A stretch of 64,000 nt of DNA from Octopus vulgaris. Its lineage: Eukaryota. Shown here in pieces: positions 3,872 to 44,909 of the stretch. Position numbers and translations under genes: made by a program. The stretch lies in the NCBI GenBank assembly GCA_951406725.2, contig OX597835.1, positions 30,628,001-30,692,000 of the forward strand. Direction: 5' to 3'. How positions within the stretch are numbered: the stretch's first letter is position 1; each line of letters begins with the position of its first letter. Under the pieces are notes generated by a model. It ran no database searches and was not told where the DNA came from. It saw only the letters and a program-made list of their open reading frames with translations.

Positions 3872-3980
3872 TATGTATACGTGTGTGTATACATTTATGT
3901 ATGTATATATTCAAAAGGTAACCGCATATGAATCGCTGGCGATTTTTTTCCCTTCGTCTTCCTTTTCTATTGGACTCTCT

Positions 3981-4015
3981 GTTTATGAAGAAGAGCATTA
4001 CTCGAAATGTTAAAC
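3981..4015 (+). ncRNA. Degenerate ultra-short hammerhead (extra-A class) inside element 3911-4120
   Basis: GUUU AUGAAGAA GAG-cauua-CUC GAAA UG UU AAAC; C3 is mutated to A. Confidence 0.5.
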
Positions 4016-4169
4016 CATCTTTCTTTCTTTCCCTGGGCGTGTTTGTTCTTCTTTGTTTGGGGAATACAATTAAATATATTATTCTCTCATTTTCAAATGC
4101 ATATTTTTTAGCATATATATGTATTTGCGTGTGTATGCTTGTGTGTGTATAGCAACAGTAGCCATATGT

Positions 4170-4690
4170 GCAAAGCAAATTAAATATAATTTGGGATTTT
4201 TTGCGAAGGGATAAAAGTGGTAACAAGAACAGGACAGTAAAAACAAAACAAATAAATGCGGTAAAATACAGGACAAGGAGAATAACACAGTAAAGACAAA
4301 CGGTAAGGGCTGTTAAGCCTTTGTTTTTACTGTCCTGTTTTTGTTACTACTTTTATCCCTCCGCAAAAAATCCCGAATTTTATTTAATTTGCTTTGCGGG
4401 AAGGACTGCTTCAACAAAGTCGAGTCTTGCCCTTACCTTCGAAACACGGTGTAGACGAAATAGAGGCGGCTGAAGAAGAGGAATATTCCTTGTGTTGTAT
4501 GTCTTATACTCTGTTTTTTCGTTGTTTGAAAAAAAGTCCGTTTCCATGGTTTTGTTTTTATGTTTTCGTTATTCATTGTGTTCGACGTCTTTTTAGTGTC
4601 CTGTACTTATATATGCATGTATATATGCATATAGATGTAGGTATGTACATATGTGTATGTATATATGGATATGGTTTATTTATTAGTTTG
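4170..4690. mobile_element. Hairpin (arms 4170-4247/4320-4397) plus tail element; tail family recurs at about 14190-14440
   Basis: About 78-bp imperfect inverted repeat. The segment cgaaa(t/c)agaggc(g/a)gctgaagaag..aaaaaagtccgtttcc is shared with 14210-14300. Confidence 0.6.
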
Positions 4691-4738: not shown

Positions 4739-4895
4739 CGTACATACATGCACACACATACGAACCCCCACACACATATACATACACACACATAAATATA
4801 TAGGGAAAATTCAAGAAAAAAACAACAAAAGACGAAGACAGGTGGTGTAGAAAACAAGCAGATGTATTAGTATAACGCTCGGGAATTGAAAAAGT

Positions 4896-4931
4896 CTTTA
4901 ACGTTTCAAGCCTACGTTCTTCCACAGAAAA
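4896..4931 (-). ncRNA. Ultra-short hammerhead variant (CUGUNGAA core) inside element 4801-4970
   Basis: UUUU CUGUGGAA GAAC-GUAG-GCUU GAAA CG UU AAAG; stem II partly decayed. Confidence 0.5.
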
Positions 4932-4966
4932 GAACACACAAACAAACAAGGAGAAATACAAGGAGA

Positions 4967-5899: not shown

Positions 5900-6707
5900 G
5901 TGTATATATATATTATTTGCATTGGTTCCAGATAAACTCTCGTTTATCCTGTTGTTACTTGCACTCTACATGTATGCTGTGTCTGCACACCAATGCCCGG
6001 GGATAAAACATAAAACTCAAACCGATAGCATATATGTGGATATTTTATCCCTTAATCCATTATTATAACCGCTAACTCTGTTTACACACGCACATGCACA
6101 CACATACACTCACACATACACTCACATACACACACCCACACATATATTGATGCACACAAGTAAATACATAAATGTAAAACAAATTGGAATAGATAGTACT
6201 CGATTACCGAAGATAGAGTTTTTAATTGAAGTCGAATAATATTCTCACAAACTGTCCCTCGGAGTATTACGTTACCGTGTGTCGGACAGTTGTAATCAAA
6301 ACAGTCCAACGAATGCTAACGTGATACACAGAGTGACAGTCTTGTGAAGAATATTTTCGTTTCTAGTACATGCGAGTGTATGAGAGTGTATACGTGTGTA
6401 TAGATAAATAGATAGACACATAGATGAAATTGATAAATTAGATAAATAGGTGTGGTAAGAAGCTTACTTCCCAACCACATCACTCCATGTTCAGTCCCAC
6501 TGCATGGCACTTTGTGCAGTTGTTTTCTACCAGAGCCCCGGGCTGATCAAAGCCTTGTGAGTGGATTTGGTAGACGGAAACTAAAAGAAGCCCGTTGTAT
6601 ATATATATATATATATATATACATATATATGTATGTATGTATGTATATATATATATATATGTATATATATGAATAAAAAATGGAGTTAACGCAGGCTTAA
6701 ACAAGTA

Positions 6708-6804
6708 TTTTTACTTTCTACACATGTTTCGAAAATTCCACTGATACTATTCAAAAGAATAAATGGTATAAACAATGCAATCTTCTCTTCGGGAAAGTGA
6801 AAAA
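6708..6804 (-). ncRNA. Type I hammerhead ribozyme in PLE pLTR (U4C core variant)
   Basis: Stem I UUUUU-C-ACUUUC/GAAAGU-AAAAA; core CCGAAGA; stem II GAAGAUU/AAUUUUC; GAAA; stem III ACA-UG-UGU; predicted GUA cleavage between 6719 and 6718. Confidence 0.75.
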
Positions 6805-6997
6805 AACGAAACTCGTCAATACGACATTTTAGCAAAAAATGATGGATTTGTATAGCGATAGACAGAACGCTATTAATATTGTTTAAAAACGTTATATGAT
6901 ATAACGTCATAAGTAGCTAACAGAAAGAGTAGGGATATTAATAGTGAATGTTAAATATAAAGGAAATTAAAGTTTAAATTATATATAATGATAGAGA

Positions 6998-7568
6998 CTA
7001 CTTATATGCACTAAATGTATGTTTCTGCCAATGCTTACATCTGTATGCTCGTTCTATAACCGTGTTTACTAGAGTATTTTTAGAAAAAATAATGAAAAAT
7101 AGCTCAGAATTGCAGAGAAGACAGAATTTCTTGCCTTTGTCATATGGTATCGAAATTGAGAGGATCAATCATTCTAAATGAAATTGTTCATTGTGGTCTT
7201 TTAAATCCCAAAATCAGTTTGCTGAGACCGGTACTATTCCGTTTATTTCTATCCCTAAATGTTGAGTAATGGATAGAAATTCTTTTAGATAACTCTAACG
7301 ATGTGCTTCCAATGTAAAATCGTACTTCATTACGAGTACTGATTATACACTGGTATATAGAATTTTTAATCTTAGAGTTACTTGACATAATATTTCTAGA
7401 GGGTTTGATGGTATTAGCTAAATTAATGTTAGTATTAGTAAATGTATTAATATTTAACAGTTTGTTATTATGAGAGAATATAATTTGCAAGAGATTTTTT
7501 GTGTTTGAAAAACCTATCCTAACCTTATGTGAATTAATTATAGAGTAATATCTAGAATTGTTTGGAAA
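6998..7568 (-). pseudogene. PLE ORF C-terminus: GIY-YIG endonuclease (frameshifted)
   Basis: Reads FPNNSRYYSIINSHKVRIGFSNTKNL..HNNKLL..KNSIYQCII..FYIGST..KRISIHYSTF..STGLSKLI/WDLK..PYDKGKKFCLLCNSE..RCKH. A 1-nt frameshift near 7211 is absent in the inverted copy at 7569-7790. Confidence 0.85.
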
Positions 7569-7787
7569 AGTACCGGTCTCAGCAAACTGATTTGGGATTT
7601 AAAAGACCACAATGAACAATTTCATTTAGAATGGTTGATCCTCTCAATTTCGATACCATATGACAAAGGCAAGAAATTCTGTCTTCTCTGCAATTCTGAG
7701 CTATTTTTCATTATTTTTTCTAAAAATACTCCAGTAAACACGGTTATAGAACGAGCATACAGATGTAAGCATTGGCAGAAACATACA

Positions 7788-7869
7788 TTTCCCGAAGAGA
7801 AGATTGCATTGTTTATACCATTTATTCTTTTGAATAGTATCAGTGGAATTTTCGAAACATGTGTAGAAA
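7788..7869 (+). ncRNA. Second (inverted) copy of the PLE hammerhead, stem I shortened by a deletion
   Basis: UUUC CCGAAGA GAAGAUU...AAUUUUC GAA ACA-UG-UGU A GAAA. Confidence 0.65.
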
Positions 7870-8914
7870 GTAAAAATACTTGTTTAAACCTGCGTTAACT
7901 CCATTTTTTATTCATATTATTCAAAATATTCAACGTAAACACGAAGTTTCAACCTTTATAAACAAGGAGTTACAACATCTTTAGTTGTGAGATTTTTGCT
8001 GCCCTGGTAACTATTCATTTATTTTTCCGTGTTAATTGTTAACAAGGTAAAAATACACTCATCTATTTATATGTATATATATATGTATATAGCTGTTTGT
8101 GTTTTCCTCCAACACCCCTCCTCACCATCTCTTGACAACCAGTGTTCGTATGTTTACGTCCCCGTAACTTAGCAGTTCAGAAAAAGAGCCTGATAGAATA
8201 TCAGGCAGAAAAACTTCAAGATGCTCCCCCAGCATGGCCGCAGTCTAAATACTGGAATAGGTAAGAGATCAAAGATGTATATCTATGTACGTGTATGTGT
8301 GTATGTATGAATGTATGTACGTGTGCATGCATGCGTGTGTGTGTGTATGTGTGTATGTATGTATGTATGTATGTATGTATGTATGTATGTATGTATGTAT
8401 ATGTTAGCCTGTTTTGTGGTTTCATTAGACTTCCAATTTATACAGTGAGTCACACGGGTCATATATATATATATCCTGTTTCTTTAGCTTATTGTGTACA
8501 TATAATACAATACGACCATACCAGCTAAATACAGTTAGTATATTTAACTTTCAGGGACCCCGTCAATCTAAGCATATAGAAAAAGCAGAAATTATGGTCC
8601 CAACAGGCCTCCGTATAACGTACTTTATAATAACTCGCTCAAGACTTCCTCCGCCATCATGGACGTAAAAAACGATCCCCCCCTCCACTGCCATTGCCAA
8701 CTGCTTAAAAAAGAATAATAAATATAATCAAGAAACAATAATATTTAGTATTTCATAAAATTCTTTTCTCTGTATCCAGGTCCCAGAGGTAAATGTGATT
8801 TAAATGAACGGGTTCCGACTGGGAATCGAAATCAGATCGTGGTTTTGGTCCGTCGGGATTCAACAGCTTCTGGTTGAAGAACTTGTGGGCGCTCTCAACC
8901 ACTTTAGTATTTCC

Positions 8915-22240: not shown

Positions 22241-23263
<1,023 letters not shown>

Positions 23264-24542: not shown

Positions 24543-24834
24543 TAAAATTATTAATATTTCAGGCAATAAAATCCAAAACTTACAAAGCAAAAATTCAATT
24601 TAGATATACTAAATCAAATTTAACACAATATTATATATATAAAAAAAATTAGTAAAAATACCACATTTTATCAATTCAAAATGAGCAATTAAATTACACC
24701 ATCTAGAAAATTACATATGTTAAAAATATTAACATTAAAATGTTAATATTTAATGTTAATATTTTTATTATATGTAATTTTCTAGATGGTGTAATTTAAT
24801 TGCTCATTTTGAATTGATAAAAGGTGTTTTTTTC

Positions 24835-24839
<5 letters not shown>
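24543..24839. repeat. AT-rich palindrome (arms 24647-24739/24749-24839) with one-sided tail, between (TA)n tracts
   Basis: ttttatcaattcaaaatgagcaattaaattacaccatctagaaaattacatat and its reverse complement. Confidence 0.8.
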
Positions 24840-24881
<42 letters not shown>

Positions 24882-24976
24882 GGGAAGCTTTACGAAAATA
24901 AACAAAAGACGAAGGCAGGTGGAGTACAAACAAACAATTGTATTAGTATGGCGCTCAGGAATAGAAATAAAACATG

Positions 24977-25014
24977 TCTTTTACGTTTCGAGCCTACGCT
25001 CTTCAACAGAAAGA
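24977..25014 (-). ncRNA. Ultra-short hammerhead variant (CUGUNGAA core) inside a ~170-bp element (24878-25050)
   Basis: UCUUU CUGUUGAA GAGC-GUAG-GCUC GAAA CG UA AAAGA. Confidence 0.65.
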
Positions 25015-26027
25015 TACACAGAAAAGAAACACGGAGAGAAACAAGGAGATATATAATTTTAGCATTATCGATGCCACATATAATGTACGTGTGTTGCTAA
25101 ACGCAGACTGAACACGTTTAACAACGCATATTTAATGTGACATCGGTAACGTGTGTGTGTGTGTACGTCTGTATGTGTGTGTGTTCATGCATATATACAA
25201 GCTGACTGAATACTCAAAAAACAGAAGAATCACAGTTTAAATAAATCACCAAGAATCAAATTTTAAACATCGAAAGCATACGCACACTCGGAGATGCATT
25301 AATAAACATATACGCACATACACCTGCACACTTAAACATACACAGACACACATATACCGAACTAACGCACATAAACATACACACTTCTCATGTATAAACA
25401 TCAATACATAGATATAAGTATTGATGTTATATACACTCACTCACTATCGTAAACTCGTGTAGGAGCAGATAAACACGGCCATACATTTGGACAACTGAAT
25501 GCACATTGCATTTCGAGCGATTATACGCCTTAACACATGACAATACCTCAATGAAATTTCCCCTTGAATCCCGAAAGTTAGAAAGCAAACGAAAGAAATT
25601 CCACATTTCTTCCTTTTTTTTTTATGTCCCCTTATTCTCACCCATTTTGTCTCCACTCGATTATGTCTCTTCTCGTTCTTTATTTACGGACGCACAAAGA
25701 ACAAGACAGTAAATTGAAGACATCGTATCTAAAACCAAACTACAAGCAGTGCAAAATACATACGCACGCGCACTCTGACAAATGCATACATCAGGCAAAA
25801 CACAAAGCAAAAAAGGCGAGATATACAACAGCAGCCCACACAAGACGTACAACAGATGACAACACACAGAGTTTAATAACTGAAGTAAACTAAGAACAAT
25901 GTATATTTATTGAAATACACAATCGTTGTATCAAAATTATGTACAAATGATCAAACATCTCGGATTGGGAAAATGAAAAAAAAAAAGAAAAGAAGCTAAA
26001 ATGATATAAATACAATCGTAGTAAATA

Positions 26028-44664: not shown

Positions 44665-44711
<47 letters not shown>

Positions 44712-44742
44712 TTCTTTTTCTCTCCTTGTTTTTTCTGTGTAC

Positions 44743-44778
44743 CTTTCTGTAGAAGAGCGTAGGCTCGAAATGTAAAAG
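44743..44778 (+). ncRNA. Ultra-short hammerhead variant (CUGUNGAA core) inside element 44710-44868
   Basis: CUUU CUGUAGAA GAGC-GUAG-GCUC GAAA UG UA AAAG; (TA)n on both sides. Confidence 0.55.
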
Positions 44779-44865
44779 ACTTTTTCTATTCCTGAGCGTT
44801 ATACTAATACTTCTGTTTGTTTTGTACGCCACCTGTCTTCGTCTTTTGCTTTTTTCGTAAACTTC

Positions 44866-44909
<44 letters not shown>

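What the first reader, a model, noticed from the sequence alone, without database searches (positions are those of the whole stretch)
24878..25050. Family with a non-canonical CUGUNGAA core and a zero-loop stem III (3 copies)
Seen: copies at 4896(-), 24977(-) and 44743(+) all have U in place of the normally invariant A6, a variable N7 (G, U, A), an extra A before the GAGC-GUAG-GCUC hairpin, and GAAA(C/U)GU followed by A or U. Variation falls at N7 and H17, the free positions of a hammerhead. The motif is only about 38 nt. Inference: a hammerhead variant that can form stem III only as a dimer, or a catalytically dead relic retained as a recognition signal. I cannot tell whether this variant is already catalogued.
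Basis: partly seen in the sequence, partly recalled or inferred. Interest (0 to 1): 0.75.

Follow-up and report, generated by a model that had tools for sequence, protein, structure and literature searches.

The report
Penelope-element hammerhead with fixed U6 core
These repeats are leftover tail ends of a recently active jumping gene whose small hammerhead RNA motif carries a U at a core position that is normally A, in about 18,000 exact genomic copies and through ten successive generations of the element, which likely makes it a slowed-down self-cutter; cutting has not been tested.

Summary
The three copies are real (0 in 100 shuffles). They are 5'-truncated 3' ends of a young Penelope-like retrotransposon (RT + C-terminal GIY-YIG, 4.47-kb unit); intact copies carry the motif in both terminal repeats. 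U6 is the consensus: 17,944 exact matches, only 211 with A6. Over ten successive subfamilies 0 of 34 motif sites changed, against 32 of 88 downstream sites; only N7 (5 times) and H17 (3 times, never to G) moved. The missing stem III, the extra nucleotide and dimer dependence were described in 2014 for such elements (PMC4209133). The fixed U6 I found in no paper I could read, but Lunse 2017 was unavailable. Position-6 changes slow hammerheads, 5' junctions do not pile up at the cut site, and insertions end about 100 nt past it, so templates were uncut. Best reading: an attenuated hammerhead under strong selection; close rival: a non-cutting fold bound by the element's protein. The scan noted ordinary PLE hammerheads in other genomes, not this U6 family. 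New variant of a known kind; moderate interest.

The parts
24879..25049 (-). 5'-truncated 3' end (pLTR) of a Penelope-like element, subfamily S9; focal copy
   Evidence: 92% over 212 nt (including TA) to the 3' end of intact element L144; tree
24977..25014 (-). Minimal type I hammerhead motif: stem I UCUUU/AAAGA, core CUGUUGA (C3 25009, U6 25006), extra A 25002, stem II GAGC-GUAG-GCUC 25001-24990, GAAA, palindrome ACGU, H17 = A 24982
24952..24957 (-). Conserved downstream box YGAGCG, 20-27 nt after the cut site in this genome's lineages; repeats the 5' arm of stem II
24839..24878 (.). (TA)n microsatellite at the element's fixed 3' end (insertion target)
4803..4966 (-). Second copy, older subfamily S5 (core CUGUGGA, H17 = U; stem II decayed to GAAC/GCUU); motif 4895-4932
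44709..44868 (+). Third copy, subfamily S7 (core CUGUAGA, H17 = A; C15.2 changed to U); motif 44743-44778

Best explanation
The motif is the minimal hammerhead in the terminal repeat of a recently active Penelope-like retrotransposon lineage that has fixed U at core position 6, and it is likely an attenuated ribozyme that stays uncut in most transcripts. Shown: the location in both terminal repeats of intact elements, U6 as consensus, strong conservation, and 3' ends 94-103 nt downstream of the cut site. Inferred: reverse transcription primes at that downstream site, so cutting at the 3' hammerhead would separate the priming site from the element body, and a slow ribozyme is tolerated or favoured. 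U6 would slow the chemistry and is predicted to pair U4-G5-U6 with the ACG palindrome needed for dimer stem III. Residual cutting would need a second copy (tandem units) and probably the element's protein, as shown for the anole PLE. The three window copies are orphan ends, 20 kb apart, probably inert.
For: Intact elements: 7 of 20 regions, picked for long frames, hold an unbroken 964-966 aa ORF, 5 of them with the U6 motif on both sides; a tandem array has four motifs 4.47 kb apart. U6 in 76 of 78 copies sampled by an anchor outside the motif, A6 in 0. 0 of 34 motif sites change over ten subfamilies against 32 of 88 downstream sites (Fisher p 5e-6); N7 changes 5 times, H17 3 times and never to G. 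The stem I pair 2.4/1.4 is swapped in the sister lineage. Predicted G5-C15.2 pairing 0.30-0.98 with U6, 0.00-0.12 with A6. The young sister lineage fixed another core change, C4. Literature: natural A6C is slow but active (PMC3088659, PMC7151607); the anole PLE hammerhead cuts only with protein and uncut RNA is the main template (PMC11167929).
Against: No cleavage was measured. In a complete mutagenesis, all single mutants of the CUGA region had low activity (PMC9901934, passages). 5' junctions show no excess at the cut site: 6 of 79 loci at position 1.1, against 7 at A9, 5 at A13 and 16 at a TA microhomology in loop II (hand tally). Loop II and stem II are invariant in sequence, with no compensatory change in lineage A, which fits protein recognition as well as catalysis. 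Conservation of U6 alone is not significant (one site, background 0.6-0.9 changes per site). Avoidance of G17 rests on few changes, and some old copies have G17 (4 of 100 rows). The dimer hammerhead fold is far above the predicted dimer minimum (-14.9 vs -28.0 kcal/mol).
Confidence: 0.5

Rival explanations
1. Catalytically dead but selected: the hammerhead-derived fold, perhaps a rod closed by the U6-A15.1 helix, is kept as the RNA signal that the element's RT-endonuclease binds before priming about 100 nt downstream.
For: Invariant loop II and stem II sequence; U6-dependent rod predicted in all ten subfamilies; no junction excess at the cut site; 78 of 87 sampled copies run intact across the site; hammerhead mutants did not affect anole PLE insertion in vitro (PMC11167929).
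Against: The only free positions are the two that are free in an active hammerhead. C3, A14 and U16.1 stay fixed though unpaired or mismatched in a rod, and H17 never becomes G in a subfamily consensus; this evidence is weak by count.
Confidence: 0.33
2. U6 is nearly neutral: in the dimer, with protein or another metal, it cuts about as well as other PLE minimal hammerheads, and was fixed by drift in one master lineage.
For: A6C keeps good activity in Mn2+ (PMC7151607); PLE minimal hammerheads are weak anyway (PMC4209133); a weak hint of extra junctions at 1.1 in the first tally (15 of 98 loci).
Against: The hint vanished in the pure A17 subfamily. None of 39 motifs beside related elements from other animals has U6, and no reversal to A6 was fixed in ten subfamilies.
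Confidence: 0.12
3. The motif is conserved at the DNA level (internal promoter or endonuclease signal) or simply hitch-hikes, and the hammerhead likeness is only ancestry.
For: It lies 750-800 nt upstream of the ORF in the terminal repeat, where PLE promoters are reported (PMC6765202, passages).
Against: Hitch-hiking is excluded by 0 of 34 against 32 of 88 variable sites. A free N7 and H17 and the swapped stem I pair fit an RNA fold.
Confidence: 0.05

Closest known systems
Minimal hammerhead (min-HHR) of metazoan Penelope-like elements (Cervera and De la Pena 2014, PMC4209133)
   Same: Type I topology, no helix III loop, palindromic 15.2-16.2, extra nucleotide between 9 and 10.1, G10.1-C11.1, 4-5 bp helix I, U-rich 5' flank, place in both pLTRs, mostly solitary truncated copies, dimer model.
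   Different: Their consensus is CUGANGAH and every alignment row I saw has A6; the only core change named in the text read is U3-A8. Here U6 is fixed, stem II is 4 bp rather than 7-8, and the motif is very homogeneous.
Natural A6C hammerhead of phage Bcep176 (Perreault 2011, PMC3088659; Naghdi 2020, PMC7151607)
   Same: Natural change at core position 6.
   Different: C, not U; a single phage example with full stems, slow in Mg2+ and rescued by Mn2+. Here a fixed state in tens of thousands of eukaryotic copies, untested.
Anole Poseidon element PAc hammerhead (PMC11167929)
   Same: RT primes 85-92 nt downstream of the cut site (94-103 nt here); AT-rich targets; uncut RNA is the template.
   Different: C3/G8-dependent cleavage shown with protein, which is untested here; Poseidon clade; its motif overlaps the ORF start, here it lies 750-800 nt upstream.
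Dimer-cleaving small hammerhead variants of PLEs (Lunse, Weinberg, Breaker 2017)
   Same: Short stem III, dimer cleavage, PLE link (known to me from its title and citation in PMC6765202, and from recall).
   Different: Could not be read; it may already list position-6 variants.
Neptune/Nematis-type EN+ PLEs (PMC8557442, passages)
   Same: RT, linker CX2-5CxxC, C-terminal GIY-YIG, (TA)n targets, partial tandems with inverted truncated copies.
   Different: Clade not placed by a tree against named references.

Membership tests
Penelope-like element (EN+) | Single ORF with RT followed by GIY-YIG endonuclease | tested here: met
   RVT_1 31.9 bits, above cut-off 29.6; GIY-YIG E 0.0065 but below cut-off; DKG, YIDD and YIGQTG in one frame; 717 homologs with the same domains
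Penelope-like element (EN+) | Direct terminal repeats (pLTR) from tandem or partial-tandem units, fixed 3' end, 5' truncation | tested here: met
Neptune clade | Linker CX2-5CxxC finger upstream of GIY-YIG; (TA)n targeting | tested here: met
   CSRPRCRTC in the ORF; TA flanks. The finger is shared with Nematis (PMC8557442)
Neptune clade | RT phylogeny groups with named Neptune references | not tested
   no named reference sequences at hand
PLE minimal hammerhead | No stem III loop, palindromic 15.1-16.1, extra nt before G10.1-C11.1, short stem I, in pLTR | tested here: met
Hammerhead ribozyme | Core C3 U4 G5, G8 A9, G12 A13 A14, A15.1-U16.1, H17 | tested here: met
   72-78 of 78 copies at each fixed site; H17 A 63, U 12, C 1, G 1
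Hammerhead ribozyme | A at core position 6 | tested here: not met
   U in 76 of 78; A in 211 of 17,944
Hammerhead ribozyme | Covariation in stems I and II | tested here: inconclusive
   one compensatory swap in stem I between lineages; stem II invariant
Hammerhead ribozyme | Site-specific self-cleavage after H17 | not testable with these tools
   indirect junction test showed no excess; no raw RNA reads offered
Rfam hammerhead families | Match at gathering score | tested here: not met
   0 matches in three loci; no hammerhead among the 150 listed of 524 window hits
Non-LTR retrozyme | Short (170-400 nt) non-coding tandem monomers | tested here: not met
   copies are variably truncated ends of a 4.47-kb coding unit

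The most novel reading that the evidence does not exclude
U6 is a selected brake: it locks the monomer by pairing the core strand with the dimerisation palindrome, so the hammerhead cuts only when the element's protein and a tandem partner remodel it. The sister lineage reached a similar state by fixing C4. This would explain why PLE hammerheads are universal yet weak, and would show a natural, high-copy core outside the CUGANGA consensus that descriptor searches miss.
Probability: 0.25. Interest if true: 0.65.

Novelty: new variant of a known kind. Interest (0 to 1): 0.43.

Why it matters
What the hammerhead does in Penelope-like elements is an open question (PMC8557442, PMC11167929). This genome offers an apparently intact, recently active element and a dated series of ten subfamilies in which a 'forbidden' core base was kept while the free positions turned over. 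That makes the question directly testable (U6 against A6, with and without protein). It also shows that CUGANGA descriptors miss at least 18,000 motifs here. If U6 is simply dead, it is a clear case of a ribozyme fold kept for a non-catalytic role.

Tried and rejected
Rfam: no hammerhead match. The first elements found by RT search were a sister lineage with a C4/A6 core, not the U6 partner; the right partner came. An A6 subfamily at the base of the lineage was suspected from the tree and rejected: the oldest subfamily has U6 in 87, C in 8, A in 4, G in 1 of the first 100 of 398 matches (hand count), and the A6 copies are scattered across the tree. One search gave an A6 consensus for S4 only because A6-selected loci were included; redone without them. 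A register shift or a rewired hammerhead using the downstream CYGAGCG as core was rejected: it lacks G8/A9 and has no stem I partner. The downstream box as a general feature was rejected: it is absent beside related elements of other animals, which have other conserved boxes. Genomic cleavage signature: not found. Whole-motif folding is not better than shuffles. No RNA holder was listed on record; contigs of runs guessed to be RNA cover the motif, 5' region and ORF start, which shows neither strand nor ends. No U6 motif in metagenome contigs; no relatives in viral contigs. Lunse 2017 and the Scott 2013 review were not held.

Full report
Observation. The three motifs are present with C3 at 4927(-), 25009(-) and 44747(+). 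A degenerate 27-nt pattern finds exactly these three, and nothing in 100 shuffles. Each sits in a shared 160-175 nt repeat (77-84% pairwise) flanked by (TA)n. The copy at 4896 has a decayed stem II, and the U at 15.2 of the copy at 44743 is private.

Family. An exact 28-nt pattern with positions 6 and 7 free has 17,944 matches and its reversed control none; with A6 it has 211, or 1.2%. To avoid choosing copies by the motif, I anchored on a downstream tail (16,625 matches) and read 90 loci: 97 hits, 87 distinct, 78 kept and 9 dropped for more than 8 mismatches (those I saw are 5'-truncated, one is a diverged C6 copy). Of the 78, position 6 is U 76, C 1, G 1, A 0; N7 is A 27, U 25, C 17, G 9; H17 is A 63, U 12, C 1, G 1, gap 1. 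Contigs of four public runs with four other organism codes show no other letter at 3% or more at position 6, while N7 and H17 vary.

Parent element. Copies share a fixed 3' end and extend upstream to variable lengths, reaching endonuclease and RT sequence. A 200-aa query from such a copy returned 150 scored matches of 13,874 candidates, all listed at 100% identity. Of 20 regions that I picked for long frames, 7 hold an unbroken 964-966 aa ORF from Met to the end of the endonuclease, 98.8-99.7% identical to each other (21 pairs), and 5 of them have the U6 motif 745-799 nt upstream and 807-876 nt downstream. One array has four motifs 4.47 kb apart. The protein has RVT_1 above cut-off, GIY-YIG below cut-off (E 0.0065), and a CX4CxxC linker. 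With (TA)n targets this fits Neptune/Nematis-type PLEs (PMC8557442, passages); I made no tree with named references. The focal copy is 92% identical to the 3' end of an intact element.

Selection. A tree of 229 terminal-repeat ends is ladder-like. I grouped 142 copies by hand into ten subfamilies, leaving out loci picked for A6; divergence from consensus falls from 9.5% to 1.4%. Across them 0 of 34 motif sites change, against 32 of 88 downstream sites (Fisher p 5e-6); N7 changes five times (U, C, G, A, C, U) and H17 three times, never to G. The grouping used a tree that included N7, so the N7 count is not fully independent. U6 is already the majority in the oldest subfamily (87 of the first 100 of 398 matches, hand count). 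The window copies fall in S5, S9 and S7. A sister lineage keeps A6: an old branch is canonical, and the young intact branch has C4, with a 3-nt loop II and stem I GUUU/AAAC in place of CUUU/AAAG. A loose pattern covering both lineages has 37,930 matches (control 1); by hand count 66 of the first 100 are of the U6 lineage. Beside related elements in 80 metagenome loci I found 39 minimal motifs, some redundant: 31 CUGA, 6 CCGA, 1 CAGA, 1 CUGG, none with U6, none in shuffles. U6 is therefore derived and lineage-specific, while C4 recurs.

Mechanism. Shown: insertions end 94-103 nt after the cut site, at a TA-rich stretch, and 78 of 87 sampled copies cross the site intact. Inferred, from the anole PLE study (PMC11167929, main text read): RT primes internally downstream of the hammerhead on uncut RNA, and that hammerhead cuts only with the element's protein. 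A fast 3' hammerhead would cut the priming site off the element, so slowing it costs little or helps. Position-6 changes slow hammerheads: natural A6C is below 0.1 per min (PMC3088659, passages) and strongly impaired in Mg2+ but rescued by Mn2+ (PMC7151607, parts 1-2 of 4); all single mutants of the CUGA region had low activity in one construct (PMC9901934, passages). Folding adds a second possible brake: with U6, U4-G5-U6 pairs with A15.1-C15.2-G16.2 (G5-C15.2 probability 0.30-0.98, against 0.00-0.12 with A6), occupying the palindrome that must pair between molecules. A box YGAGCG 19-27 nt downstream, fixed in all lineages here, can compete with stem II in the model but shows no covariation, so it may instead be a protein-binding site.

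Results against active cutting. If cut RNA were copied, 5' junctions should pile up at position 1.1. In 98 loci (first 100 of 221 rows, hand tally) 15 did, against 21 at a TA microhomology in loop II. In a pure A17 subfamily (all 85 rows, 79 loci after merging 6 repeats, hand tally) 6 did, against 16 in loop II, 9 at U16.1/A17, 7 at U6/A7, 7 at A9, 5 at A13, 4 each at 1.2 and 1.3. This is the microhomology pattern, with no cleavage signal. Stem II and loop II are invariant, single-site conservation of U6 is not significant, and the dimer fold is far from the predicted minimum. Hence 0.5 for an attenuated ribozyme, 0.33 for a dead but selected fold.

Comparison with what is known. Cervera and De la Pena 2014 (PMC4209133; parts 1-2 of 4, and part 2 of 3 of supplementary file 2; file 1 not searchable) define this architecture: no helix III, a nucleotide between 9 and 10.1, palindromic 15.2-16.2, low activity only as dimers. 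Their consensus and every row I saw have A6. Other papers seen: PMC8557442, PMC6765202, PMC6155905, PMC7229834 (passages); bioRxiv 2026.07.22.740005 (part 1 of 5). Nine searches showed no natural U6 hammerhead; one search listed papers holding the strings, which I judged unrelated from titles and abstracts only. Lunse et al. 2017, the largest catalogue of such variants, was not held and may contain it. The motif works like, and sits where, a PLE minimal hammerhead does; it fails the A6 criterion, and catalysis is untested.

Verdict. Real, very abundant and under strong selection in a recently active element; most of the 'non-canonical' anatomy is known, the fixed U6 appears to be new. New variant of a known kind, interest 0.43.

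Noticed in passing
L113:3487-3575 and many loci: A second young intact PLE family (949 aa, 6.2-kb tandem unit) has fixed C4 (CCGACGA) with A6 and a mismatched stem I; C4 also occurs in 6 of 39 motifs from other animals.
   Followed up: partly
subfamily series S1-S10: N7 was replaced five times, far above the flank rate (0.6-0.9 per site); unexplained (diversifying selection or a mutation hot spot).
   Followed up: no
window 4386-4500 (+): A different repeat with hammerhead words in another order (GAAAC before CUGAAGA); homologs in several fetched loci. Probably the 'rewired' hammerhead noted elsewhere in this genome.
   Followed up: no
window 3944-4039 (+): Old, decayed related pLTR end with A6 (core read AUGAAGA), stem I GUUU/AAAC.
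   Followed up: partly
window 22241-23263 (-): Homeodomain exon (Pfam E 5e-22), NK1-like by recall, with a splice-acceptor-like start near 23240; the focal copy lies 1.6 kb upstream on the same strand, possibly in an intron. The first exon was not found.
   Followed up: partly
window 24647-24859: About 210-nt palindromic repeat directly beside the focal copy's (TA)n; also in several other loci.
   Followed up: no
window about 6700-8070: Folded-back fragment of another PLE with a GIY-YIG-type C-terminus (7533-7898 +), recognised by eye; no Pfam hit.
   Followed up: no
L042:1370-1640: Two U6 motifs 247 nt apart in a partial tandem, a natural substrate for a dimer assay.
   Followed up: no
L317, L318, L325, L326: Old copies with G at position 17; two of them are related and could be an extinct G17 subfamily.
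   Followed up: no
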